DNA of 41,039 nucleotides from a phage. How positions within the stretch are numbered: position 1 is the first letter of the stretch; each line of letters starts with the position of its first letter. The stretch lies in sequence record NC_093712.1; one strand, 5' to 3'. This document shows, piece after piece, positions 1,553 to 25,049 of the stretch. The notes under the pieces were generated by a model. That model was not told the DNA's origin, made no database searches, and saw only the letters and a program-made list of their open reading frames with translations. Made by a program: the position numbers and the translations under genes.

Positions 1553-3864
1553 TATTTGAACCCCGGCGCGTTTCTTGTGGCCTTGCGGGCCTTGCTAATC
1601 TTACTGTTGCTGTTCTGCAAAGAGGCCGCCACTTGCTCTTCAATGATGATACGCAAACGGCCTTCATCATCTTGTTCAGTGGATACGTTGCCAATCTGAG
1701 AACTCGTGTTGTTTACGATGGTAACATTAGACGGTCCGGAAGAAGACCCGTTTTGCCCCATAATTTCTTTCATCTGCTGCGCGGTGCGAACACGCGATGC
1801 CCCCGCGGGCATGATAACCTCAGGTTTACCACGTTCGGCGATGGTGGAAGCCTGCCCCGCGGATAACTGACCGCCCTGTTCACGCGCAGATCTGATAGCG
1901 GAAATCTGCGCCATACCCGCCCCAACGGCAGCGGCGGCGGCTACAGGTGCCAGGAACGGACCGACTACAGGGATAGCTGCCGTGGACTTGTACGCCTCAA
2001 TAGCTGCGGTGTATGTGGCTATAGTGGCCTGTACGATAGCGAATGCCTTATACGCACCAGAAGCCTCGCCCAAAGCCGAACCGATGTTTGAGGCCATGTT
2101 ACCAAAGGCGGTTGCCGTCGCGTCGGCGCGTTTCGTGGCGTACTGCTCGTTGATGGCATTAAGCGCGGCCTGGTACTGCTTCTCGCTAATCAGACCCTGT
2201 TCGCGGTACTTATCTGCGACAGCCAGTTTCTGCTGTTCCTGGATGTCGAGAAGCTCAAGCTCGGCGGCGTTCTGCCCCATAATCTGGGCCATGAAGTCAT
2301 CGCCTTTCTGCTGCTTTTCCTGCTGCTCTTTTCTTTTCTTATCCAGTTCTTCCTGTCTGGCCTGCTCGGCTGTGAGCATAATTTGAGTTTTGGCATCTTC
2401 ATACTGCTGCTGGCTTATCGTCCCAGCGCGGTTGAACTCTTCAAGTTTCGCCAGTTTCTGCTCTTCTGCTGCCGTGATACGAGAAATTTCGTCTCCAGTA
2501 GTGCGGTCGACAGTAGCCAGGAAATCTTCCGCCGCTTTTTTCTGCCGTGCGGCTGCAGTTTCTTCGCGTTTGGCTTGTGCCGCCAGACGTTTCTCGTTAG
2601 ATTTAGCCTCGCGGTCCGCCTTCTCTTTCTCGGTCTTGTCAATGCGGGCGATGTCTTGCTGCGCTTCCGCGTCACGGGCGGCATTATACGCGGCTATCTG
2701 TTCTTTGGTGACAGCTTCACGTTTAGCAAACGCCTGCTTATCAAGTTCAGCTTGCGCCCGGATGCGCTCACGGTCGCTTAAGATGGCGATTTGCTGGTTC
2801 TTAACGATAGCTTCGTTCTGTTCCTGGAATCTCTGCGTGGTTGAGTTGACGTTACGACCAAGATTCTTTTGGGCCTCTGCCGCCGCGTTTGCTGACTTCT
2901 CTGCGTTTTCCAGTGCCGTGGCGTTCTTGTTGGCATTATCGGTGAGGCGGATAAGCTCCGGGTTCAACTGTTTTGTGTTACCCAGCCAGTCGGTAAACAC
3001 ATCGGCGATGCGGCGGGCATTCTCCGCGGTTGGCTCTTTGTTAAACGCGCTCTGCGCCGCTATCATCTCCAGCGCCTGGTCACGGTTAACCCCGAACTTA
3101 CTGCTAAGCTCCGCGATATTCTGCGCCAGCATGTTGACGCCTACGATGTTACCCTCGTAAGTGCCGCCTAGTTTTTCTAACGTGTCGCCTACATCCGCAC
3201 CCTTAGAGACCAGTGCATCGTACTGGCTAATCGCCGACGCCGTGGAGGCTTTCCACGTTTCCCATGATTCTGCGTCCTCACGAACAGCTTTAGCTGTTTG
3301 CTGCGCGATAAGGTCCGCGTTAGCCTTAGCCAGAGCAAGCTGAGTCTCTGCCGCTTCTCGGCTTATTTGGGTAAGCTGGATGAGGCCGTCTGTCAGTTCA
3401 AGAGAGCCGGACGCCGTTTGCTGGAAGGTGTCTTTTAACTGTTTCTGCGCGGCTTCGAGGTCTTTTGAACTCCCTTCCGCCTCTGTTAGCGATTTGTACA
3501 GGACGCCGCCGATTGCGGACGCGAGGGCAATTACCGCTCCCAGTACGGCGCCCCCCGGGCCGAAGGCACCCGCAAGCTGCGAACCTTGCTGACCGATTGC
3601 TACGAATGCGGACGTACCGGACTGCAACTGGACAACCATGTCCTGCACCTGGAAGCCCACCTGCCCGGCGGCGTTACGGAACTTAGCGAAACCGTCAGAG
3701 GCCGCTTTAGAGGTAGCTGTGTTAACCTTATTAACATCCGGGGTCAGCTTGTTTACCGCGGTATCTGCACGGTCTGCGGACGACGCCATAGCGTCAAGCT
3801 GTTTGGCGGCTACGTCAGCGCCTTCTGTTTTTACTCTGGCAATTAGGGAAGCCGTATCAGCCAT
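1552..3864 (-). CDS. tail tape measure protein
   Basis: ~770 aa, Ala/Gln/Glu/Lys-rich coiled-coil-like composition, Gly/Ala-rich hydrophobic segment near C-terminus, located after tail chaperone genes; ATG at 3864 preceded by GAGGG (track start 3879 is TTG). Confidence 0.85.
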   Translation of the reverse strand: MADTASLIARVKTEGADVAAKQLDAMASSADRADTAVNKLTPDVNKVNTATSKAASDGFAKFRNAAGQVGFQVQDMVVQLQSGTSAFVAIGQQGSQLAGAFGPGGAVLGAVIALASAIGGVLYKSLTEAEGSSKDLEAAQKQLKDTFQQTASGSLELTDGLIQLTQISREAAETQLALAKANADLIAQQTAKAVREDAESWETWKASTASAISQYDALVSKGADVGDTLEKLGGTYEGNIVGVNMLAQNIAELSSKFGVNRDQALEMIAAQSAFNKEPTAENARRIADVFTDWLGNTKQLNPELIRLTDNANKNATALENAEKSANAAAEAQKNLGRNVNSTTQRFQEQNEAIVKNQQIAILSDRERIRAQAELDKQAFAKREAVTKEQIAAYNAARDAEAQQDIARIDKTEKEKADREAKSNEKRLAAQAKREETAAARQKKAAEDFLATVDRTTGDEISRITAAEEQKLAKLEEFNRAGTISQQQYEDAKTQIMLTAEQARQEELDKKRKEQQEKQQKGDDFMAQIMGQNAAELELLDIQEQQKLAVADKYREQGLISEKQYQAALNAINEQYATKRADATATAFGNMASNIGSALGEASGAYKAFAIVQATIATYTAAIEAYKSTAAIPVVGPFLAPVAAAAAVGAGMAQISAIRSAREQGGQLSAGQASTIAERGKPEVIMPAGASRVRTAQQMKEIMGQNGSSSGPSNVTIVNNTSSQIGNVSTEQDDEGRLRIIIEEQVAASLQNSNSKISKARKATRNAPGFK

Positions 3865-4237
3865 CTTCTCTGCCCTCAAATATTCCGTCTAAGCCCATGA
3901 TAACCTCGGCTTCGAACAAACTTATGCCGTAACCGGCGACATCACGAAACGCTACCAAATCATGCCATTTGAGCGCATCGCGCGGGATTATAACGATAGT
4001 ATCATCTGTTTCGCGCTGTAGGAATTTAATGGCACGGTATTTCTCGAACACGTCGATAAGAGAAACGGGGCATTCTGGCCCCGTCGTTTCTTTCATCTGC
4101 GGTTCTTTAATCACGCCCATTGCAATCAAAGCCGCCTGGTGCCCCGCCGCGATGTCGTCGAATTGCTTACGCTTGTGACGGTCAACAAAGCACCATTGCG
4201 CAAATTCATACAGCGCTTTTACTTTTCCGAGAGTTTC
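3857..4237 (-). CDS. tail assembly chaperone, -1 frame extension (T part of a G/GT-like pair)
   Basis: Frame -1 relative to 4219..4635 is open from 4237; overlaps end of G-like ORF at GGAAAAGTAA; classic position between major tail and tape measure genes. Confidence 0.45.
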   Translation of the reverse strand, partial: ETLGKVKALYEFAQWCFVDRHKRKQFDDIAAGHQAALIAMGVIKEPQMKETTGPECPVSLIDVFEKYRAIKFLQRETDDTIVIIPRDALKWHDLVAFRDVAGYGISLFEAEVIMGLDGIFEGREDG

Positions 4238-4635
4238 TCACGACTGTCGGTGTGATGCTTAACTACGGCCTCCGCCAGCCCACTGTACTGGTCGAACAGG
4301 TTAGCCAGCGCCTCTTTGCTGAACGGTTCGTCGAATGACCAACCGGTGACGATTTCCACGGCAAGCTGCTTGTTCAGGTCCATCACCCGCCAGCCCTTCT
4401 CATCGTTATAGCGCGCCCAGTTATTCAGTGCCTCACACTCTTTATCTAATGGTGCAAGTTCTTCCGTAAGGCGTCGAATTGCCGTTGTGTAGGCGCGGCC
4501 TGCGCGAACGCCAGCATCACAATCTGGGCCAATGACCTGCAACCATTCACCGGAGTCTTTACCACTCGGCAGAAGGATAGGCATTTTAGTGCCTACAGCA
4601 TGGCGGTCAGCAAAATAAAAATCAGAAAGTTTCAT
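4219..4635 (-). CDS. tail assembly chaperone (gpG-like)
   Basis: 138-aa ORF upstream of tape measure, RBS AAAGGA before ATG; overlapping -1 frame ORF downstream. Confidence 0.6.
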   Translation of the reverse strand: MKLSDFYFADRHAVGTKMPILLPSGKDSGEWLQVIGPDCDAGVRAGRAYTTAIRRLTEELAPLDKECEALNNWARYNDEKGWRVMDLNKQLAVEIVTGWSFDEPFSKEALANLFDQYSGLAEAVVKHHTDSREKLSEK

Positions 4636-4742
4636 TCTTTAGTCCTTTGGTTAAGAGGTTACAGGTTAAGGTTGACGCGCCAGACGGGAACCACCCGCTT
4701 TTCGTGTGCGACACTAGGCGCAAACTTATTCTAGCACACTAC

Positions 4743-4772
4743 TTGCACACCCCAATATAATAGGGTACTATT
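4743..4772 (+). promoter_or_regulatory. sigma70-like promoter (TTGCAC-17-TACTAT) with operator AATAG-N4-CTATT at 4759-4772; drives plus-strand accessory island
   Basis: Motif CTTGCACACCCCAAyATAATAGGrTACTATTCAC also found upstream of genes at 24188..24153 and 22701..22667 (minus strand); followed by RBS GAGGAA and ATG at 4800. Confidence 0.5.
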
Positions 4773-4799
4773 CACCTGTAACTTACTGAGGAAATAATT

Positions 4800-5126
4800 A
4801 TGCGTAAATTAGTGTTAGCTCTTGGTTTTATGTCTTTTGCTACTTTTGGGTCTCCGTGTGAACAGGTGTTTAGTGAATCCGTTCTTATGACTTCTGGTGT
4901 GCTTGATAGAGCCGACCCTACTATTGTAAAGGCATTTAAGGACTCTACCGTTCGCGAGTGTGAGGCAGCCGTAGAGGTTGGTAAATCGGGCCTGCCTCCG
5001 CAAGCCGTAACATACACGGTAATACGTTCTGTAGAGAAAAACGGAGACGCGTTTTACAGCCTACTGACCGCCACCCGCCTGCAAATGGTAATGACTGGGT
5101 GGGCAATAGGCGCAGAAAGTAAATAG
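4800..5126 (+). CDS. small secreted or membrane-anchored protein (N-terminal signal peptide); possible superinfection-exclusion type protein
   Basis: 108 aa, hydrophobic N-terminus MRKLVLALGFMSFATFGSPC; first gene of opposite-strand island; good RBS. Confidence 0.55.
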   Translation: MRKLVLALGFMSFATFGSPCEQVFSESVLMTSGVLDRADPTIVKAFKDSTVRECEAAVEVGKSGLPPQAVTYTVIRSVEKNGDAFYSLLTATRLQMVMTGWAIGAESK

Positions 5127-5191
5127 TCGCCTTTATTTAAAGGAATGCACTGTGGTTAAATAGGACAAATCCTAAACACGAGGAAGTAAGC

Positions 5192-6322
5192 ATGGCCCAG
5201 AAGAAAATAACCGACGAACAGTTACAGGAAGAATTGAACGCCGGGATGAAGAATGTAGACATCGCCCGTAAATACGGCATCTCAGACCGCGTTATTCGTA
5301 TCCGTAAAGCGAAGCTGGCTAAGAAAGGTGTAGGCCACGGGCGCGATGTTAGCCACCTTGTACCGGACGGCTACAAGATTAAAGGAACGTCGTCACTTGT
5401 GGACGAGTTCGGCAACACTAAGTTGCAATGGGTTAAGACTGACACTGATGCCGAACGGCAAGTTGAATTGATGAAAGCCGTGATTGAAGGCATGAAGTCA
5501 GAGATTACGCCAGTTGCGCCTGTTAAAGCGACTCGGGCCAAACGTGACGACAAGCTGCTCAATCTTTACACTGTATCTGATTTCCATCTCGGTATGCTGG
5601 CCTGGGCCGACGAGAGCGGCGACGACTGGGATATGAAGATTGCGGAAGACCTGTTCTCCCGTTGGTTTGATGCCGCGTTTCAGAAAGCGCCTGACGCCGG
5701 AACAGGAGTTATTAACCTGCTGGGCGACCTTGCGCACTTCGATAGTCTGGACGCCGTTACCCCCGCAAGTGGTCATGTTCTTGATGCGGACACGCGCTAT
5801 CAGAAACTGGTACGCTACATGATTCGTATGGTACGTCGTGTTGTCGATATGGCCCTCGCTAAGCATAAAACTGTTCGCTTGCTTATCGTGCAAGGGAACC
5901 ACGACGAAAGCGGAATGATTTGGTTAGCTGAGATGTTCAGCACGCTATATGACAATGAGCCGCGTGTGTTCGTCGATACGTCTCCAGATGTTTACAAGAT
6001 GGTGCAACACGGCAAAACGACATTGTTCTTTCACCACGGGCATAAAGCACGCTTCGACGCTATCGAACCGGTTATGGTTGCCAAGTTCCGCAAAGCGTTC
6101 GGCGAGAGCGTTTATAGCTACGCCCACGTGGGTCACCTGCACCACCAAAAGATTGTAGAAAGCCGTAACATGATTGTTGAGCAACACCGCACTCTCGCGG
6201 CTAAAGATGCATATGCCTCCCGCGGTGGGTGGATGTCGGGCCGCAGTGCAAATGTAATTACTTATAGCGCCGAATATGGTGAGGTCGCACGTTTAACTAT
6301 TTCACCGGAGATGCTGGGATGA
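5192..6322 (+). CDS. calcineurin-like metallophosphoesterase with N-terminal helix-turn-helix
   Basis: Motifs SDFHLG, GDLAHFD, GNHDE, GHLHH in correct order for binuclear metallophosphoesterase; N-terminal NVDIARKYGISDRVIRIRK resembles HTH. Confidence 0.7.
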   Translation: MAQKKITDEQLQEELNAGMKNVDIARKYGISDRVIRIRKAKLAKKGVGHGRDVSHLVPDGYKIKGTSSLVDEFGNTKLQWVKTDTDAERQVELMKAVIEGMKSEITPVAPVKATRAKRDDKLLNLYTVSDFHLGMLAWADESGDDWDMKIAEDLFSRWFDAAFQKAPDAGTGVINLLGDLAHFDSLDAVTPASGHVLDADTRYQKLVRYMIRMVRRVVDMALAKHKTVRLLIVQGNHDESGMIWLAEMFSTLYDNEPRVFVDTSPDVYKMVQHGKTTLFFHHGHKARFDAIEPVMVAKFRKAFGESVYSYAHVGHLHHQKIVESRNMIVEQHRTLAAKDAYASRGGWMSGRSANVITYSAEYGEVARLTISPEMLG

Positions 6323-6807
6323 AAGATATTGTGATTTTCGATTTAGATGGAACACTGGCGGATGGTACTCATCGTTTACATCTGCTGCCGAAAGATAACT
6401 ACGGCGAAACCTGGGCGTGGAAGCCTTTTAACATGGCCTGTAAAGATGATGCGCCGATATATGACAACATTCACTTGTGCAACACACTGTGGCATACCGG
6501 GATGATCGTAATCATCCTTACCGGGCGCAGTGATGATGCTGAGGATGAGACTCGTAAATGGTTGCGAGAAAATAACGTTAAGTTTGACACGCTGATAATG
6601 CGCAGCAAACACGACAACAGAAAAGACATCGTAATTAAAGAAGAGGTGTTGCGTGCTATTGGGCCGGAGAGAATCTTGTGTGCATTCGACGACTCTCCAG
6701 CGGTAATAAAGCATTTCCGCGGACTCGGTATAACCACTCACGCGGTTACTGAATACGACTGTAAAGGGAACTCTACTCACTTAAAACCACACGGGAGCGA
6801 TAAATAA
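6319..6807 (+). CDS. HAD-superfamily phosphatase, T4 Pnkp 3'-phosphatase-domain-like
   Basis: DxDGT motif (VIFDLDGTLADG), ILTGRSDD, TRKWL, RKDIVIKEE and FDDSPAVI align by eye with the T4 polynucleotide kinase-phosphatase C-terminal domain; ATGA coupling to upstream gene. Confidence 0.7.
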   Translation: MKDIVIFDLDGTLADGTHRLHLLPKDNYGETWAWKPFNMACKDDAPIYDNIHLCNTLWHTGMIVIILTGRSDDAEDETRKWLRENNVKFDTLIMRSKHDNRKDIVIKEEVLRAIGPERILCAFDDSPAVIKHFRGLGITTHAVTEYDCKGNSTHLKPHGSDK

Positions 6808-7361
6808 TGGCTAAGGTAATTATTCTTAATGGTCCTGCTGGTTGCGGGAAAGACACTCTTGCTATGGCGTTGGTAGAAATGGGCTTTGCAAAAGGAACTG
6901 CCAGTTTCAAGAATCCGATGTTCAATATTGCTATGGCTGCGTTAGGCCAGGATGCTTACCGCGAGTTTCTCGACGGCTACGACGACCGGGCGCGGAAAGA
7001 AAAGCCAGAGGGTTTCCTTAACGGGTTGTCTCGGCGTCAGTTCATGATTGCCATTTCCGAGCAATTCATTAAACCGGTATTCGGTGATGATTATTTCGGT
7101 AAGTATCTTGCCGGAAACTTGCCCGACGGCGACGAAGTTTTTGTGGTGTCTGATGGCGGGTTCGCCAGCGAAGTAGCCCCTATCGTTGCCGCAGGGCATG
7201 ATGTGAGAATCGTCCGCTTGCACAGAGACGGCCATACGTTTGAAGGGGACAGCCGCGGTTACCTGTACGATATTGATGGTGTAAAAGATTATGACACCCA
7301 CATCATACCGGGTTACGTTAAATCGAACGCTATAGGTATTGCTTTAATATTAGGTTTGTAA
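6807..7361 (+). CDS. P-loop nucleotide kinase, T4 gp1 dNMP kinase-like
   Basis: Walker A GPAGCGKDT; further blocks (AMAALG, RRQFMIAIS, VVSDGGF, DVRIVRLHRDG) resemble T4 deoxynucleoside monophosphate kinase as recalled. Confidence 0.65.
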   Translation: MAKVIILNGPAGCGKDTLAMALVEMGFAKGTASFKNPMFNIAMAALGQDAYREFLDGYDDRARKEKPEGFLNGLSRRQFMIAISEQFIKPVFGDDYFGKYLAGNLPDGDEVFVVSDGGFASEVAPIVAAGHDVRIVRLHRDGHTFEGDSRGYLYDIDGVKDYDTHIIPGYVKSNAIGIALILGL

Positions 7362-7363
7362 GA

Positions 7364-7390
7364 AAAAGGCCCCGAAAGGGGCCTTAGTTT
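7364..7390. terminator. bidirectional rho-independent terminator
   Basis: AGGCCCC-GAAA-GGGGCCT hairpin flanked by A-run upstream and T-rich downstream; lies between convergent kinase and major tail genes. Confidence 0.75.
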
Positions 7391-8556
7391 TATGCGTAGG
7401 TGATGCGCTGAATAACAATAGACGACTGGTACTGGTTACCAGTAGCCTGGCCTTCGATGGACTGAGTGATTGACTCAGGCCCGCCAATCTCAGGTGTAAC
7501 CGCGGTAAGTTCTGCACGTTTCAAGCTGAAAGACATAGCCCCGTTTACCCCCGCCAGAATAGAGTTAATCTCCACCTGCTGCTCGTTGATAAACTTCTGA
7601 ATCATCGCCATGTCGTACAGCTTACCGGAGATGGAGAAGGTGTTAGCTGCTCGGCTACGCTCCACAAACGCTACGTTAGTGTTGCCGAGTTCGAACTGTG
7701 CGGACGCGCTGTTGTCGTTGGTGATGGTCAGGCTGTCGCAACGCAACGGCGTAGAACCGTCGAACACAGAAACATCGACCGAGGAGAATGGCTCGTTACC
7801 AAACGTAACAGAGGAGAAATCAGAACCAGACGGCTGCGTGGTGAGAATCTCCTGACTGCGACCGATGAACGGGAAGCTGCCAGTTACCATAGCGTTAACA
7901 GCCTGTTCGATGGTAAAACCAGAAACTTCCACGCCTTTGGTTAGTGTGTACGCGTCAGTCCCGCCGCACTGGCCTTTGTACCAGGTGAGAATAGAGAACG
8001 TCTTGCACTGGCTTCCCGTTTCCAGTTTATCCCCTGTCTTAGCGGCGGTAGTTACTGTCTCTGTGGTCAGGGTATGCTGGATACCTGCCCCGGTCACTAC
8101 CAGCGCCTCTACTGCAGTTACGATAAACGGTTTTGCGTTGTCACCGGTTAAGTCGGTAAACGCAATCAGGTCGCCCACTTCAACGCCGTCAGAAATAAAG
8201 CTACCTTCGGCACGGGTAAAGGTCTTGCCTGCAGGCGCGACGGTAATTGATAGCCCGGTCAGAGAACTACCGGATCGCCATGTAGAGCCTAAAGCACCCG
8301 CCAGCCAGTCGTCCTGGCTTTTCGAGCTAAGCTCAATAGCGTATTCTCCGCTAACCTGCTTGTTACCGGTGCGGATTGACGTAGTTTCACGGCTGCCGTC
8401 CAGTTCGTTGGAGGTCAGCGTGTCGCGGGTAATGGCAGGAACGCCACCTGTGTTACGCAATGGCGACCAGACCGGGTTAGTCGGTGTTACGCCCGGGGTA
8501 GTTTCTGCCACATAGAATTGCGCAGTATTCGCGCCCTTAAAAGGAGTTGTAGCCAT
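7390..8556 (-). CDS. major tail protein
   Basis: 388 aa, Thr/Ser/Gly-rich beta-type composition, position between tail terminator-like genes and chaperones; RBS AAGAGG before ATG at 8556 (track start 8562 is GTG). Confidence 0.65.
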   Translation of the reverse strand: MATTPFKGANTAQFYVAETTPGVTPTNPVWSPLRNTGGVPAITRDTLTSNELDGSRETTSIRTGNKQVSGEYAIELSSKSQDDWLAGALGSTWRSGSSLTGLSITVAPAGKTFTRAEGSFISDGVEVGDLIAFTDLTGDNAKPFIVTAVEALVVTGAGIQHTLTTETVTTAAKTGDKLETGSQCKTFSILTWYKGQCGGTDAYTLTKGVEVSGFTIEQAVNAMVTGSFPFIGRSQEILTTQPSGSDFSSVTFGNEPFSSVDVSVFDGSTPLRCDSLTITNDNSASAQFELGNTNVAFVERSRAANTFSISGKLYDMAMIQKFINEQQVEINSILAGVNGAMSFSLKRAELTAVTPEIGGPESITQSIEGQATGNQYQSSIVIQRITYA

Positions 8557-8558
8557 AT

Positions 8559-8975
8559 TCACAGCCTCTTGGTGAATGCAATAAAGTTAATTGACAATGG
8601 TCGTTTGGCCCATCCGTTTTCTACAATCAGCGGCCCCAGGCTAACCTCACTCACAACGGCGCAGATGTCGTTACGTGAAAATGACTTACCTGCTTTAAAC
8701 GCCGTGTTAAGTAAGTCTGCCATTTTATTGATCGGCGCGCTACCTTTCACCGATGCGTAGTTAATGTCGACCTGATAAACACCCGCGCGTTGTTCCGTGA
8801 AGAACAAATCTGCTTGCTCCGTATCCGCCAGCAACATGTAACTTGCCAGATACGGCGTATCGGTTGACGTCGGCGCGTCTATGTTTTCAAGCGCGACCTT
8901 AATGCCGTTGGTGGTTCCGAAGGCTACCAGCGGCACATCGAACGCTTTCGTTAAGTCCTCAAAGTAGCCCATCAT
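8559..8975 (-). CDS. tail terminator / tail completion protein (positional call)
   Basis: 138-aa ORF directly upstream of major tail gene, ATGA-coupled. Confidence 0.45.
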   Translation of the reverse strand: MMGYFEDLTKAFDVPLVAFGTTNGIKVALENIDAPTSTDTPYLASYMLLADTEQADLFFTEQRAGVYQVDINYASVKGSAPINKMADLLNTAFKAGKSFSRNDICAVVSEVSLGPLIVENGWAKRPLSINFIAFTKRL

Positions 8976-21978: not shown

Positions 21979-22523
21979 CAGAAGTATTCCCCGCACGTTT
22001 TACATACTTTCGTACCGAACGGCGCGGAGCCATCTGTTATTACATAATAGAAACTGTGTTTGCACTCCTGTGTACAGGCTGTAGCCCCATACTCAAGTCC
22101 GTCCCACTCACGCTTGCCGCATTCGCAGCAAAACCGGCTACCGGGCACGTTGTCCTTGCAGCCTTCGGCAATAAACAATCCTGGAGCGATAATCCAATTG
22201 TGGTCATATTCCTGCGTATCTTCTTTTCGGCAACCAGATTGCTCCGAACCGTACGCACCTTTGCGGATAAGTTTGTATGCCTCCACGTCACCAGTAGCCT
22301 TGACCAATGCCAGATGCAACTCCTTAACTTGCCCTGTCAGGTGCGATATGTGCTCAGATTTCTTAATGTTGTCTTCCCGCAACTCCTTAATCTGCGCCGA
22401 CGCATCACGTAACTGATTCTTAAGTGACTGCACCTCATGCGCCAGGTCTTCGCTCCGGCTGTTATTTACCTGCTGCCGTAGCTGGTCGATAAGGTACTCG
22501 AATATTTCGTTTTTAGTGTTCAT
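21978..22523 (-). CDS. coiled-coil protein with C-terminal Cys-rich (zinc-binding-like) domain
   Basis: 181 aa; N-terminal heptad-like region, C-terminal CxxC...CxxC clusters (FCCECGK, VCKTCGEYF). Confidence 0.55.
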   Translation of the reverse strand: MNTKNEIFEYLIDQLRQQVNNSRSEDLAHEVQSLKNQLRDASAQIKELREDNIKKSEHISHLTGQVKELHLALVKATGDVEAYKLIRKGAYGSEQSGCRKEDTQEYDHNWIIAPGLFIAEGCKDNVPGSRFCCECGKREWDGLEYGATACTQECKHSFYYVITDGSAPFGTKVCKTCGEYF

Positions 22524-22641
22524 ATTCTTCGCTCACCCCGTTATAGACGCCGTTGTAGTCCCCGTCGCAGATGAACGGGTAGCGCATATCTTCGTACTCG
22601 TCCTGCAGCTCACCTAAAGTTACTTCGCTATAATCTCTCAT
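22513..22641 (-). CDS. hypothetical small protein (42 aa)
   Basis: Manually found; RBS GAGGAGA; first ORF downstream of promoter at 22701..22667. Confidence 0.3.
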   Translation of the reverse strand: MRDYSEVTLGELQDEYEDMRYPFICDGDYNGVYNGVSEEYEH

Positions 22642-22666
22642 ATTCTGTCTCCTCTCTCGTTCGTGT

Positions 22667-22701
22667 AAATGAATAGTAGCCTATTCTATCTTAGTGTGCA
22701 A
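22667..22701 (-). promoter_or_regulatory. promoter (TTGCAC-17-TACTAT) with operator AATAG-N4-CTATT (22672-22685)
   Basis: Same conserved motif as 4743-4772 and 24153-24188, oriented toward downstream minus-strand genes. Confidence 0.45.
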
Positions 22702-22708
22702 GTAAATT

Positions 22709-22882
22709 TTATTGGTGTGTTATAGAGTCGATGAACGCCAGTAACTCCCTTTCCACTTCTGCTTCTCTTTCTTCAAGCGACCAGGTAGCGAATTCCTCTG
22801 TTGCCGTTGCTAAATCGGTTTTTACGTCAATCATCGTGTCGATTAACGTGATTAGTCGTTCAGCCTGTTCTTTAGTAATCAT
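22709..22882 (-). CDS. hypothetical small acidic protein (57 aa)
   Basis: Manually found ORF MITKEQAERLITLIDTMIDV..., RBS AGGAGA. Confidence 0.4.
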   Translation of the reverse strand: MITKEQAERLITLIDTMIDVKTDLATATEEFATWSLEEREAEVERELLAFIDSITHQ

Positions 22883-23016
22883 TGTTGCATCTCCTGCAAT
22901 AGTCGCTTCGATTGTTGCGTTTGATGAAAGTGTCGCCTTTTGACGACACTAAGTTAAAGCTGTACGCTGCTGTGTAGCAGCGTAAGTCACTCAGTAAAAT
23001 CCCAAACTATTGAACA

Positions 23017-23211
23017 TCACACTTCCGGCGGCTCTGGTAACGGCATCCAGTGCGACGGTTCACATACCCCCTCAACACCATCAATGTAAAAGAATTGAAA
23101 TAGCCCTTTACCTTTATGAAACCCTACCATCTGCTCTTTTGTATCAGAGCAATAAACCAAAACATCTTCATCCTTTGGCATCCGCTCACTGCACTTAATC
23201 CACTCACCCAT
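23017..23211 (-). CDS. DUF551-like small phage protein
   Basis: 64 aa with WIKCSERMP...HWMPLPEPP pattern typical of DUF551 proteins of enterobacterial phages (recalled). Confidence 0.6.
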   Translation of the reverse strand: MGEWIKCSERMPKDEDVLVYCSDTKEQMVGFHKGKGLFQFFYIDGVEGVCEPSHWMPLPEPPEV

Positions 23212-23214
23212 AAA

Positions 23215-23358
23215 TCACCTCTGATTCGCGATAAACAACACACCAGCTTTCCACGCCCGCCACGCGAGACGCGTCTTAACGTTCAGGTACTCTTTCTTCG
23301 AACCCTTGTTAACCGGCAGACCCTCGACTATAGCCCACCGTTCAAATGCTTCTCTCAT
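23215..23358 (-). CDS. hypothetical small protein (47 aa)
   Basis: Manually translated; ATGA-coupled to upstream ORF. Confidence 0.35.
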   Translation of the reverse strand: MREAFERWAIVEGLPVNKGSKKEYLNVKTRLAWRAWKAGVLFIANQR

Positions 23359-23510
23359 ACCAGAACCTCACATTCATCCCGATACACGAACAATAACGAC
23401 CCTTTGTACTCAATCATAAAACCATAATGGTTGCTGCTGAACGCCAGAAAAACATCACCTACCGAGATACCGAAATCTATAAGCCTGCGGTCAGTTATTC
23501 GGATTCTCAT
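23355..23510 (-). CDS. hypothetical small protein (51 aa)
   Basis: Manually translated ORF MRIRITDRRLIDFGISVGDVF...; starts 4 nt after upstream stop. Confidence 0.35.
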   Translation of the reverse strand: MRIRITDRRLIDFGISVGDVFLAFSSNHYGFMIEYKGSLLFVYRDECEVLV

Positions 23511-23513
23511 AGC

Positions 23514-23705
23514 TCAGTCCTCATCATCTTCTAAGTCTGGGTACACTATGAAATCTCCAACCCTCTGCAACTCCGCACCCGCCATAAAATAGCCAAGTGC
23601 TTCGGCTCTTTCGGAATCGGTTTTAAACTCAGACAAAGGATATCTTTCGTAGAACTTGTTAATTAATAACGCCTGGTCAAACTTAGTCGCATCATAATTT
23701 TTCAT
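23514..23705 (-). CDS. hypothetical small acidic protein; G12 homopolymer sits immediately 5' of its ATG (or inside an N-terminal extension to 23798)
   Basis: ATG at 23705 lies 5 nt after the homopolymer, which may serve as SD-like sequence; the longer track ORF (23514..23798) reads through the tract as RGGGVG. Confidence 0.45.
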   Translation of the reverse strand: MKNYDATKFDQALLINKFYERYPLSEFKTDSERAEALGYFMAGAELQRVGDFIVYPDLEDDED

Positions 23706-23710
23706 ACCAA

Positions 23711-23722
23711 CCCCCCCCCCCC
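23711..23722. repeat. homopolymeric tract, C12 on plus strand (G12 in the mRNA sense)
   Basis: Directly visible: ccaa cccccccccccc gcaacgcg. Confidence 0.9.
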
Positions 23723-23754
23723 GCAACGCGCACACCACATGAACGGTTAAAGTA

Positions 23755-23946
23755 TTATTCATGGCAACCTCCCTCGGAGTCGTCGGCGCGAGCATCATGA
23801 TTCGATGCCGTTTGCTCCCGCACTTCTACCATCCTTCCTACCACTGCGGCATAATACACATACCGCTTTATTGCGTAATCTTTATTACTTGTCGTCTCTG
23901 TTATGACCCCGTCGACGTATACGTCGTAAATTAATTCCCCCATCAC
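23755..23946 (-). CDS. hypothetical small protein (63 aa)
   Basis: ORF track; ATGA-type coupling with upstream ORF. Confidence 0.45.
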   Translation of the reverse strand: MMGELIYDVYVDGVITETTSNKDYAIKRYVYYAAVVGRMVEVREQTASNHDARADDSEGGCHE

Positions 23947-24125
23947 TTCGCCCCTTTGAATTTAAAATTGTTGCCGATGAGTTCTAAATTATCGTGACGA
24001 ACATAACCATGTTTCCTCCGTATAAGGCTAAATACGGCGACAACACCATATTCATCCTCGTCTTTGGTAGCTATTACGTGTTGCCGGCTGCGCTTTGTTT
24101 TTGCCAACTGACCATTCTTAAACAT
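23943..24125 (-). CDS. hypothetical small basic protein (60 aa)
   Basis: ATG at 24125 preceded by AGGAG (track start 24134 is GTG); first gene downstream of promoter at 24188..24153. Confidence 0.45.
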   Translation of the reverse strand: MFKNGQLAKTKRSRQHVIATKDEDEYGVVAVFSLIRRKHGYVRHDNLELIGNNFKFKGAK

Positions 24126-24152
24126 AACCCTCACTCCTCTGTCTCGTTTCGA

Positions 24153-24188
24153 TAAGTGAATAGTATCCTATTATGTTGGGGTGTGCAA
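24153..24188 (-). promoter_or_regulatory. early-left promoter (TTGCAC-17-TACTAT) with operator AATAG-N4-CTATT (24159-24172)
   Basis: Conserved motif; -35 at 24188..24183, -10 at 24165..24160; RBS and ATG follow ~30 nt downstream on minus strand. Confidence 0.5.
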
Positions 24189-24337
24189 GAGATTAGTTAC
24201 GTTGCCGTTGTGATTCTTTTGTTTAATGGGGTAGCGAGCGAAACGAACGTGGTGCCGGAGGCACCAAGAGTGAGTGAGTGAGCTTGCGGTTCTGACCTAC
24301 GGCAAATCAATAACTTAGATATTTAGGCGGGGAATTA

Positions 24338-24482
24338 TAATAGACTATGGCCCTTCCGAATGCGTCAGCGAGGCTCACTCCACACGTCGAGACGTGCTCG
24401 TTTCGCCTGCCGCGCACCGCGGTCGCTTGTTCATACTTCACAAGCTCAGGACGAGCTTACCATATTTCTCAGTAAAAGTCAA
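24338..24482 (-). promoter_or_regulatory. conserved promoter plus structured leader element, copy 2 (TTGACT-17-TGnTAAGCT at 24482..24454)
   Basis: Near-identical blocks to 13363-13522; hairpin CACGTC-GA-GACGTG (24373-24386) replaces GGAC-TTAC-GTCC of copy 1 at the same relative position; perfect TATAAT on plus strand at 24336-24341 is an alternative reading. Confidence 0.5.
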
Positions 24483-24589
24483 TACCAGTAGCATCTTTTG
24501 CATCTTAGTAACTTTGTGTGGTGTTTTGGTTGCTTTTACATTCCCGCTATCCTATACTCGGTTCCACCAAACAAACAGGAGATATGAAA

Positions 24590-24772
24590 ATGCCGCATTA
24601 CATGACACAGAATGAAGTAGCTGAACGTATCGGGGTGACACGTCAGACAATTAATAACTGGCTGCGCAGTGGTAAATTCCCGGATTGCTGTATTAAGGTT
24701 ATGGGTCGCCGTTTACCGGGAACATTCGACCGTAATAAAGTTGAAGCATGGATTAAGGAGAACGTGAAATGA
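24590..24772 (+). CDS. small HTH DNA-binding protein (AlpA/excisionase-like HTH)
   Basis: ATG at 24590 with AGGAG RBS (track ORF starts upstream at 24518); MTQNEVAERIGVTRQTINNWLRSGKFP is a typical HTH_17-type motif. Confidence 0.6.
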   Translation: MPHYMTQNEVAERIGVTRQTINNWLRSGKFPDCCIKVMGRRLPGTFDRNKVEAWIKENVK

Positions 24773-24981
24773 TTGGGCGTATGGGTTGTTACTTTGAAAA
24801 CGGTAAAGTTAAATACTGGTTTAAGTTTGCGTCAGAAATTACTGACAGCGGATTCTATGCAGAAATATGTAAGCCTAATCATTTGTCGGAACCGACGCGC
24901 ATTATTAAGATGCCAGTAGATGTGTTAAGTAAATGCCGTTTCTATGATTCCGAGCGCGCGTGGTTTTCTGGTTGTAAATAA
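24769..24981 (+). CDS. hypothetical protein (70 aa)
   Basis: ATGA-coupled to upstream HTH gene. Confidence 0.5.
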   Translation: MIGRMGCYFENGKVKYWFKFASEITDSGFYAEICKPNHLSEPTRIIKMPVDVLSKCRFYDSERAWFSGCK

Positions 24982-25049
24982 AAGAAACCCCAACGCCAGA
25001 ACGTCGGGGTTGAAGCACAAATCATCAAAGTAAGCCCAAGGATTATACA

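What the first reader, a model, noticed from the sequence alone, without database searches (positions are those of the whole stretch)
4743..7390. Opposite-strand island encoding metallophosphoesterase, Pnkp-like phosphatase and dNMP-kinase-like P-loop kinase inside the tail gene cluster
Four plus-strand genes interrupt the otherwise minus-strand tail module between the major tail gene and the tail chaperones, with their own operator-controlled promoter and a bidirectional terminator, which is moron-like. The three enzymes (calcineurin-like metallophosphoesterase with HTH, HAD phosphatase resembling the T4 Pnkp 3'-phosphatase domain, P-loop kinase resembling T4 gp1) together supply 2',3'-cyclic or 3'-phosphate removal and 5'-phosphorylation. 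That is the end-healing chemistry used to repair tRNA or other RNA cut by host anticodon nucleases, so this may be a counter-defence module lacking its own ligase. Nucleotide salvage from degraded host DNA is the alternative.
Basis: partly seen in the sequence, partly recalled or inferred. Interest (0 to 1): 0.75.

Follow-up and report, generated by a model that had tools for sequence, protein, structure and literature searches.

The report
Phage nuclease, 3'-phosphatase, dNMP-kinase island
This is the usual opposite-strand gene island of K1-type coliphages (Kagunavirus): a conserved DNA-binding metallophosphoesterase followed by an optional 3'-phosphatase and a T4 gp1-type nucleotide kinase, which most likely recycles DNA breakdown products into phage DNA precursors and is not an RNA-repair counter-defence.

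Summary
Four plus-strand genes (4800-7361) lie between the minus-strand tail-chaperone and tail-tube genes, with a sigma-70-like promoter (4743-4771) and a bidirectional hairpin terminator (7366-7385).

The RNA end-healing reading is not supported:
- The kinase groups with dNMP kinases, not with Pnkp kinases.
- The metallophosphoesterase is not of the lambda-phosphatase/bacterial Pnkp type.
- The genome encodes no ligase and no tRNA.

The island is modular. The metallophosphoesterase is a core gene of about 2,000 lytic siphoviruses. The phosphatase and kinase form a swappable cassette, present in roughly a fifth of Guernseyvirinae records and always directly downstream of it. The first gene alternates with a superinfection-immunity gene.

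The window is about 93% identical to phage K1H, and the cassette has already been noted in T1-like phages. The feature is ordinary, but it gives a testable candidate for the unidentified host-DNA-degrading gene of T1-like phages.

The parts
4743..4771 (+). Island promoter: -35 TTGCAC (4743-4748), 17-nt spacer, -10 TACTAT (4766-4771)
   Evidence: Pattern search and alignment. The upstream region up to 4775 (from 4514 or 4614, depending on the relative) stays conserved in relatives whose first gene differs. Function is inferred from consensus and conservation only.
4776..5159 (+). Variable slot A, holding g1 here
   Evidence: Similarity to Kagunavirus-like loci L017/L018 breaks at 4775 and resumes at 5160. 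Those loci carry a 68-aa Imm_superinfect gene instead (PF14373, 3e-12).
4800..5126 (+). g1: 108-aa protein with an N-terminal hydrophobic, signal-peptide-like segment; function unknown
   Evidence: phrog_14165 (unknown function), 1e-55; no Pfam, NCBIfam or PADLOC match. GC3 is 0.42 against 0.56-0.62 in core genes.
5192..6322 (+). g2: N-terminal three-helix HTH (about residues 8-44), a beta/alpha linker domain (61-104), and a binuclear metallophosphoesterase domain (119-376)
   Evidence: phrog_704, 2e-167. Invariant D130-x-H132, G178-D179..H182, N236-H237, H282, G314..H317 (H315 in at least 90%) across 37 diverse homologues. AF2 model pLDDT 91. Fold neighbours Mre11, Rv0805, PolD-DP1, GpdQ. Pfam Metallophos matches fall below the gathering scores. 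The HTH match to GerE/FixJ is only weak.
6323..7357 (+). Variable slot B: the HAD plus kinase cassette
   Evidence: Breakpoints lie exactly at 6322 and 7358 against L015/L017/L018 and Jerseyvirus SGPC, which carry a 76-aa gene (phrog_2452) instead.
6319..6807 (+). g3: stand-alone HAD phosphatase of the Pnkp 3'-phosphatase type
   Evidence: PF25109 HAD_PNKP at 72.7 bits (cut-off 27.6). phrog_415, 4e-66. Best solved relatives are Pnkp1 (4XRP) and T4 Pnkp (1LTQ/5UJ0). D8xD10xT12, R19, R70, D103, K107 and D124-D125 align with the T4 Pnkp phosphatase domain.
6807..7361 (+). g4: P-loop (GCGKDT) nucleotide kinase of the T4 gp1 type
   Evidence: phrog_139, 1.2e-45 over the whole protein; T4 gp1 hits the same PHROG at 1.8e-65. 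AF2 model pLDDT 92.6. Best TM-score is to 1DEK (0.62), then phosphomevalonate kinase and adenylate kinases.
7366..7385 (.). Bidirectional intrinsic terminator between g4 and the convergent tail-tube gene
   Evidence: AAGGCCCC-GAAA-GGGGCCTT with T-rich tails on both strands.
24160..24188 (-). Second copy of the island's promoter block, heading the leftward small-gene region
   Evidence: TTGCACACCCCAACATAATAGGATACTAT; the roughly 35-nt block is near-identical to 4742-4777.
22673..22701 (-). Third member of the promoter family
   Evidence: TTGCACACTAAGATAGAATAGGCTACTAT, a perfect match to TTGCAC-N17-TAYTAT.

Best explanation
The island is a separately transcribed DNA/nucleotide-metabolism unit. 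Its constant core is an HTH-metallophosphoesterase that acts on DNA as a nuclease or phosphodiesterase. Its optional downstream cassette processes the products: the Pnkp-type HAD removes 3'-phosphates from DNA ends, oligonucleotides or 3'-phosphorylated nucleotides, and the gp1-type kinase converts 5'-dNMPs to dNDPs, which host Ndk takes to dNTPs for phage replication. The first gene (g1, or a superinfection-immunity gene in relatives) is an unrelated envelope-directed passenger. What is shown: gene anatomy, family membership of all three enzymes, intact catalytic residues, modular presence and absence, and the conserved order MPE-HAD-kinase. What is inferred: the substrates, host DNA as the target, and the timing of expression.
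For: The kinase shares phrog_139 with T4 gp1, and its best structural match is 1DEK. Kinase homologues sit in nucleotide-metabolism contexts elsewhere. In a Demerecviridae phage one lies next to a 5'(3')-deoxyribonucleotidase, thymidylate synthase and ribonucleotide reductase. In an Autographiviridae phage one lies directly after a different metallophosphoesterase, phrog_221. A stand-alone HAD homologue lies next to nrdB in a 164-kb phage. The order MPE-HAD-kinase recurs in Kagunavirus, in Webervirus Kp109 at the end of the replication module (41/58/48% identity), and in IMG/VR loci whose MPE is 53% identical. The metallophosphoesterase keeps every catalytic motif, carries a DNA-binding HTH, and its nearest folds are nucleases and phosphodiesterases: Mre11, PolD-DP1, Rv0805. 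T1 and TLS, which carry all three genes, degrade the host chromosome and reuse its nucleotides, and the responsible genes are unidentified (PMC11447400). In Drexlerviridae this MPE is present in 508 of 522 genomes and is often followed by 'PNK' and dNMP kinase, which the authors ascribe to nucleotide supply (PMC13164509). A mycobacteriophage metallophosphoesterase degrades host DNA (PMC12287305). Guernseyvirinae phages are restricted by Ec2ApeA, which is activated by deoxydinucleotides thought to come from host DNA breakdown.
Against: There is no biochemical or genetic data for any of these proteins. Fold similarity of the metallophosphoesterase is generic (TM about 0.4-0.45 over the whole protein), and profile matches to Mre11/SbcD are not significant (E 0.1-0.6). 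The window kinase has no Pfam DNMK match, only 2 of 34 family members have a weak one, and hhalign against single gp1 or Pnkp sequences aligns only the P-loop. Most phages with the metallophosphoesterase lack the HAD and the kinase (69 of 80 loci lack the HAD and 70 lack the kinase), so the three are not an obligate pathway. Why a 3'-phosphatase would be needed for salvage is inferred only. I found no direct evidence that Kagunaviruses degrade host DNA. Dhillonviruses carry the same MPE yet were resistant to ApeA.
Confidence: 0.45

Rival explanations
1. DNA end-processing for the phage's own replication, recombination or repair. The metallophosphoesterase would act as an Mre11/SbcD-like end-resection or hairpin nuclease (the database label is 'DNA repair exonuclease'). 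The HAD would heal 3'-phosphate nicks so that host polymerase and LigA can act, and the kinase would simply boost dNTP supply.
For: The top fold hits are Mre11. The T4 Pnkp-type phosphatase is a known DNA/RNA 3'-end-healing enzyme, and all its catalytic residues are kept. In Webervirus the trio follows the helicase, endonuclease and methyltransferase genes of the replication module.
Against: No Rad50/SbcC-type partner is annotated in K1H, and the genome already has a separate exonuclease, a Holliday-junction resolvase and an SSB-like protein. T5 SbcD (D12) falls in a different PHROG, phrog_100. The sequence match to Mre11/SbcD is not significant.
Confidence: 0.2
2. One reading: an RNA/tRNA end-healing counter-defence. 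The metallophosphoesterase and HAD would remove 2',3'-cyclic or 3'-phosphates, the kinase would phosphorylate 5'-OH ends, and a host ligase would seal tRNAs cut by anticodon nucleases.
For: The HAD is a true member of the Pnkp phosphatase family, whose T4 prototype heals cleaved tRNA. HAD and kinase are adjacent and translationally coupled, like a split Pnkp.
Against: The kinase groups with gp1 dNMP kinases and not with Pnkp kinases. The metallophosphoesterase lacks the lambda-phosphatase/CthPnkp motifs and no such structure is among its top 50 fold matches. There is no ligase, tRNA or Hen1 in the genome. E. coli's RtcB needs 3'-P/5'-OH ends, so healing would block it (my own knowledge). Guernseyvirinae are restricted by the tRNA anticodon nuclease ApeA, although it is not known whether the phages tested carry the cassette.
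Confidence: 0.05
3. Anti-defence by removing nucleotide signals. The metallophosphoesterase would hydrolyse cyclic or oligonucleotide second messengers (CBASS, Pycsar, type III CRISPR). The HAD and kinase would clear alarm nucleotides that come from DNA breakdown, such as 5'-phosphorylated deoxydinucleotides or m6-dAMP.
For: Rv0805, a cyclic-nucleotide phosphodiesterase, is among the top fold hits. Defence systems triggered by DNA breakdown products are described: ApeA and PUA-Cal-HAD.
Against: An N-terminal HTH points to DNA, not to small molecules. There is no PADLOC match. The metallophosphoesterase is a near-universal core gene placed with replication or lysis genes, not a variable accessory as anti-defence genes usually are. 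Guernseyvirinae remain sensitive to Ec2ApeA.
Confidence: 0.1

Closest known systems
The same island in Escherichia phages K1H, G AB-2017, K1G/K1ind and ST20 (Kagunavirus, Guernseyvirinae)
   Same: Same position between the tail chaperones and the tail tube, same strand arrangement and same four or three genes. Nucleotide identity is 92.6-92.8% over the whole 2.9 kb for K1H and G AB-2017.
   Different: K1G/K1ind-type phages carry a superinfection-immunity gene in place of g1 (86% query cover). Some Kagunavirus-like genomes and Jerseyviruses carry a 76-aa gene in place of HAD plus kinase.
'DNA repair exonuclease - PNK - dNMP kinase' run of Drexlerviridae (T1-like phages, e.g. Webervirus Kp109)
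   Same: Homologous proteins (MPE 41%, HAD 58%, kinase 48% identity) in the same order. The run is noted in PMC13164509.
   Different: There it lies on the same strand as, and at the end of, the replication module just before the lysis genes, not inverted inside the tail module. In other Drexlerviridae (Bas11) the HAD and kinase are separated by small genes and lie away from the MPE.
T4 gp1 deoxynucleoside monophosphate kinase (PDB 1DEK)
   Same: Same PHROG, a GKD-T P-loop, and the best structural match to the g4 model.
   Different: g4 is 184 aa against 241 aa, with 17% identity in the structural alignment. There is no Pfam DNMK match, and substrate range is unknown.
T4 polynucleotide kinase-phosphatase (PseT) and Capnocytophaga Pnkp1
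   Same: g3 is homologous to their HAD 3'-phosphatase domain and keeps its catalytic residues.
   Different: g3 has no fused 5'-kinase domain. The adjacent kinase is of a different family, and no partner RNA ligase is present.
Mycobacteriophage A10ZJ24 Gp48 metallophosphoesterase
   Same: A phage metallophosphoesterase with the five motifs, shown to damage host genomic DNA (PMC12287305).
   Different: I did not test homology beyond superfamily level. The paper does not mention an HTH domain. This is a functional analogy only.

Membership tests
HAD_PNKP (3'-phosphatase domain of polynucleotide kinase-phosphatase), for g3 | Match to Pfam PF25109 above its gathering score | tested here: met
   72.7 bits against a cut-off of 27.6, E 4e-20, covering 3-145 of 162 residues.
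HAD_PNKP, for g3 | DxDxT nucleophile motif and the Arg/Asp/Lys/Asp-Asp residues of the T4 Pnkp phosphatase site | tested here: met
   D8, D10, T12, R19, R70, D103, K107 and D124-D125 are invariant in the alignment with the T4 Pnkp C-terminal domain. The mapping to T4 residue numbers is from memory.
HAD_PNKP, for g3 | Fusion to a 5'-kinase domain, as in T4 Pnkp | tested here: not met
   g3 is 162 aa with the HAD domain only, and its homologues are 160-264 aa.
HAD_PNKP, for g3 | 3'-phosphatase activity on DNA or RNA ends or on 3'-nucleotides | not testable with these tools
   Needs an enzyme assay.
T4 gp1-type dNMP kinase, for g4 | Same profile family as T4 gp1 over the whole length | tested here: met
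   g4 hits phrog_139 at 1.2e-45 (profile positions 82-243). T4 gp1, whose sequence I verified as 100% identical to X03016, hits it at 1.8e-65 (positions 83-261).
T4 gp1-type dNMP kinase, for g4 | Structural similarity to 1DEK greater than to other P-loop kinases | tested here: inconclusive
T4 gp1-type dNMP kinase, for g4 | Match to Pfam DNMK (PF21448) | tested here: not met
   No match for the window protein, and only 2 of 34 family members match weakly (0.0038).
Pnkp-type polynucleotide 5'-kinase, for g4 | Profile or fold match to the T4 Pnkp kinase domain beyond the P-loop | tested here: not met
   T4 Pnkp hits phrog_505/2071 and g4 does not. The AAA_33 match covers residues 4-25 only. 1LTQ is absent from the top 50 fold hits.
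Calcineurin-like binuclear metallophosphoesterase, for g2 | Five motifs DxH / GD / GNH(D/E) / H / GHxH | tested here: met
   All are invariant in 37 homologues of 33-50% identity, and the AF2 model matches many MPE structures at E down to 3e-8. The Pfam scores are below gathering (22.8 against 27, and 18.8 against 21.5).
Lambda-phosphatase / bacterial Pnkp (CthPnkp) end-healing phosphoesterase, for g2 | Motif II GDxxDRG and motif III GNHE (from my knowledge of the family) | tested here: not met
   g2 has LGDLAHFD and GNHD. No such structure is in the top 50 fold hits.
Mre11/SbcD nuclease, for g2 | Significant sequence or fold similarity, plus a Rad50/SbcC partner | tested here: inconclusive
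   Mre11 tops the fold list (2.7e-8, TMq 0.44), but the profile E-values are 0.1-0.6. No SbcC/Rad50 gene is annotated. T5 SbcD is in another PHROG.
RNA repair system (Pnkp plus RNA ligase, with or without Hen1) | A ligase, and a polynucleotide 5'-kinase | tested here: not met
   There is no ligase-sized unassigned ORF and none is annotated. The kinase is of the gp1 type.
Moron (independently transcribed accessory insert) | Own promoter and terminator, and variable presence among close relatives | tested here: inconclusive
   A promoter-like site and a terminator are present. g1 and the HAD-kinase cassette are variable and lower in GC3. The central metallophosphoesterase is a conserved core gene.

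The most novel reading that the evidence does not exclude
The HTH-metallophosphoesterase is the long-unidentified nuclease that T1-like, Dhillon-like and Guernsey-like siphoviruses use to destroy the host chromosome. The HAD plus gp1-type kinase cassette is an add-on with two roles: it turns the debris into dNDPs, and it removes the breakdown nucleotides (3'-phosphorylated or 5'-phosphorylated mono- and dinucleotides, methylated dNMPs) that defence systems such as ApeA or PUA-Cal-HAD use as alarm signals.
Probability: 0.1. Interest if true: 0.65.

Novelty: already known. Interest (0 to 1): 0.28.

Why it matters
The island itself is a standard, already deposited and annotated feature of Kagunaviruses, and its gene trio is common in T1-like phages. 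Two things have some value. First, the RNA-repair idea can be set aside on family-level evidence. Second, the analysis separates a near-universal core gene (the HTH-metallophosphoesterase, found in about 2,000 phage records) from a mobile phosphatase-kinase cassette. That core gene is a concrete, easily testable candidate for the host-chromosome-degrading function of T1-like phages, whose gene a 2024 re-annotation of phage TLS says is still unidentified. Host-DNA breakdown products are now known triggers of several defence systems, so knowing which phage gene makes them would be useful.

Tried and rejected
- hhalign of the kinase family against single T4 gp1 and T4 Pnkp sequences aligned only the P-loop in both cases, so it was uninformative.
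- A Pfam scan of all 34 kinase-family members gave only generic P-loop matches.
- Profile searches of the kinase and metallophosphoesterase families against PDB sequences gave only P-loop hits or non-significant hits.
- I looked for the characterised T5 dNMP kinase in T5 30-86 kb and did not find it there, so I make no claim about T5 Dnk.
- The search for related loci with the 37-sequence alignment failed; it worked with 8 sequences.
- The Kagunavirus K1B4 transcriptome paper is too coarse to time the island, and its supplements held nothing usable.
- PADLOC gave no hits.
- hhalign found no specific similarity between g3 and the NT5C-like nucleotidase that sits beside the kinase homologue in a T5-like phage.
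- I considered thymidine-hypermodification kinases and NAD-reconstitution pathways. I dropped both from my own knowledge, because the partner enzymes are not annotated in the genome.
Full report
**What is there.** The window is a Kagunavirus genome (Guernseyvirinae). Region 4600-7500 is 92.6-92.8% identical over its whole length to Escherichia phages K1H and G AB-2017.

Four ORFs lie on the plus strand: g1 at 4800-5126, g2 at 5192-6322, g3 at 6319-6807 and g4 at 6807-7361. On the minus strand they are flanked by:
- the tail assembly chaperones at 4219-4635 and 3857-4129;
- the tape measure gene;
- the tail tube gene at 7390-8562.

GC skew flips sign across the island. g2, g3 and g4 overlap at their junctions (ATGA, and TAATG), so they form one operon. 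A GC-rich hairpin at 7366-7385 has T-rich tails on both strands and lies between the convergent g4 and tail-tube genes.

**Promoter.** TACTAT follows after 17 nt.
- The block CTTGCACACCCCAA(T/C)ATAATAGG(G/A)TACTATTCAC recurs at 24160-24188 on the minus strand.
- A third site with the same hexamers and spacing lies at 22673-22701 on the minus strand.
- That makes three perfect matches where 0.3 are expected by chance.
- The upstream region ending at 4775 stays conserved in relatives whose first island gene is different.

So the island has its own promoter, and that promoter belongs to a small phage promoter family that also heads the leftward small-gene and lysis region. Whether the conserved spacer is an operator cannot be decided from sequence.

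**The three enzymes.**

g3 is a stand-alone HAD phosphatase of the Pnkp type.
- It matches Pfam HAD_PNKP at 72.7 bits against a cut-off of 27.6.
- Its best solved relatives are Pnkp1 and T4 Pnkp.
- Every catalytic position aligns with the T4 phosphatase domain.

g4 has a GCGKDT P-loop and models confidently (pLDDT 92.6).
- It hits phrog_139 over its full length (1.2e-45).
- T4 gp1, whose sequence I verified against X03016, hits the same PHROG.
- T4 Pnkp hits phrog_505/415 and not phrog_139.
- 1DEK (T4 gp1) gives the highest TM-score to the model, and 1LTQ (T4 Pnkp) is not among the top 50 matches.
- Pfam and hhalign against single sequences see only the P-loop.
- The family assignment therefore rests on the PHROG profile and the fold.

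g2 has an N-terminal three-helix HTH, a small linker domain and a metallophosphoesterase domain. All five motifs are invariant across 37 homologues of 33-50% identity.
- Motif II is GDLAHFD and motif III is GNHD. To my knowledge that is not the GDxxDRG/GNHE signature of lambda phosphatase and the bacterial Pnkp phosphoesterase.
- Its fold neighbours are Mre11, Rv0805, PolD-DP1 and GpdQ.
- Among viral models the neighbours are MPE proteins labelled as the DNA polymerase II small subunit.

These resemblances put g2 on the phosphodiesterase/nuclease side of the superfamily. They do not identify its substrate.

**Modularity.** The metallophosphoesterase is found in 2,041 phage records: Guernseyvirinae, Dhillonvirus, Drexlerviridae, and Vibrio, Roseobacter and other siphoviruses.

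I examined 80 IMG/VR loci that carry it at 46-98% identity.
- Only 11 have the HAD, and 10 have a kinase hit.
- All 11 HAD genes lie directly downstream of the MPE.
- Nine of the kinase hits follow the HAD, giving the order MPE-HAD-kinase. The tenth is a weak hit upstream in L061.
- Three Kagunavirus-like loci with 96-97% identical MPE, and the Jerseyvirus SGPC, carry a 76-aa gene (phrog_2452) instead. The breakpoints fall exactly at the MPE stop codon (6322) and at the terminator (7358).

By identity bands, about 52-56 records carry the HAD or kinase at 80% identity or more, against about 291 for the MPE. That is roughly a fifth of Guernseyvirinae records.

The first gene is also swappable: g1 alternates with an Imm_superinfect gene, and the variable stretch is 4776-5159. 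g1, g3 and g4 have lower GC3 (0.42-0.50) than the MPE (0.565) and the core genes (0.56-0.62).

The island is therefore a conserved core gene with two moron-like slots, not an indivisible three-enzyme pathway.

**Context elsewhere.**
- In Webervirus Kp109 the same three genes, in the same order, end the replication module, after the helicase, endonuclease and methyltransferase genes and before the lysis genes.
- In Dhillonvirus the MPE stands alone between the lysis genes and the terminase.
- In the T1-like phage Bas11 the HAD and kinase both lie among small genes of unknown function, but apart from each other.
- Kinase homologues lie next to a 5'(3')-deoxyribonucleotidase, thymidylate synthase and ribonucleotide reductase in a Demerecviridae phage.
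- A kinase homologue lies directly after a different metallophosphoesterase in an Autographiviridae phage.
- A stand-alone HAD homologue lies beside nrdB in a 164-kb phage.

These contexts point to DNA and nucleotide metabolism.

**Literature.**
- A 2026 paper on T1-like phages reports the 'DNA repair exonuclease' in 508 of 522 Drexlerviridae. It is often followed by 'polynucleotide kinase' and dNMP kinase, and the authors suggest a role in nucleotide supply (PMC13164509).
- A 2024 re-annotation of phage TLS states that T1 and TLS degrade the host genome and reuse its nucleotides, and that the genes responsible are not identified (PMC11447400).
- A mycobacteriophage metallophosphoesterase was shown to damage host DNA (PMC12287305).
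- A 2026 preprint reports that Guernseyvirinae are restricted by Ec2ApeA. This is a tRNA anticodon nuclease activated by 5'-phosphorylated deoxydinucleotides thought to arise from host DNA breakdown.

I found no experimental work on the Kagunavirus genes themselves.

**Mechanism.** The best-supported reading has four steps.
1. The HTH-metallophosphoesterase cuts DNA, most plausibly host DNA.
2. Where the cassette is present, the Pnkp-type HAD removes 3'-phosphates from ends or from 3'-phosphorylated nucleotides.
3. The gp1-type kinase phosphorylates 5'-dNMPs.
4. The host takes the dNDPs to dNTPs for phage replication.

I put this at about 0.45. The individual assignments are firmer than the joined pathway.

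The main rival is DNA end-processing for the phage's own replication or repair (0.2). Signal-nucleotide clearance is possible but unsupported (0.1).

- the kinase family is wrong;
- the MPE subtype is wrong;
- there is no ligase or tRNA;
- healed ends would not suit the host's RtcB ligase (my own knowledge).

**Verdict.** The feature is real, correctly described and already known at the annotation level. Interest is low to moderate. The useful residue is a testable candidate gene for host-chromosome degradation in a large group of lytic siphoviruses.

Noticed in passing
window 22673-22701 (-) and 24160-24188 (-): Two further copies of the island's promoter pattern (TTGCAC-N17-TACTAT with a shared AATAGGNTACTAT). 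They head the leftward low-GC small-gene region and the genes leading into the lysis cassette. Together with the island promoter they form a three-member promoter family with a conserved spacer that could be a regulator binding site.
   Followed up: partly
window 7366-7385 and 4754-4782 (-): The strong bidirectional terminator lies directly after the tail-tube gene. Minus-strand transcription must therefore read through it and 2.6 kb of antisense island, or restart, to reach the chaperone and tape-measure genes. A weak minus-strand promoter-like site (GTTACA-17-TATATT) lies just upstream of the chaperone gene. This may set the ratio of tube to chaperone and tape-measure expression.
   Followed up: no
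L015 7128-7358, L017 7128-7358, L018 7318-7548; L008 4134-4364: The 76-aa protein that replaces the HAD-kinase cassette in some Kagunaviruses and in Jerseyviruses matches phrog_2452 (unknown function). It aligns to the C-terminal 70 residues of several 180-250-aa phage protein families, one of them labelled ATPase.
   Followed up: partly
L018 7128-7328: One Kagunavirus-like genome has an extra 66-aa gene, with no family match, between the metallophosphoesterase and the 76-aa gene. Slot B therefore accepts further cargo.
   Followed up: no
window 22000-25000: A low-GC stretch (0.445-0.467) with very strong negative GC skew (down to -0.34) and many small ORFs lies at the divergence point between the leftward and rightward (replication) transcription units. 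It is largely unannotated in K1H.
   Followed up: no
L090 3672-4163 (Klebsiella phage Kp109): By position between the MPE and the kinase, the 163-aa gene labelled 'DNA repair exonuclease' is probably the HAD phosphatase, so the label looks like an annotation carry-over error. I did not scan it directly.
   Followed up: no
window 4658-4669 and 4771-4782: A 12-nt inverted repeat (GTTACAGGTTAA / TTCACCTGTAAC, 92% complementary) brackets the intergenic region that holds the island promoter. It may be chance.
   Followed up: no
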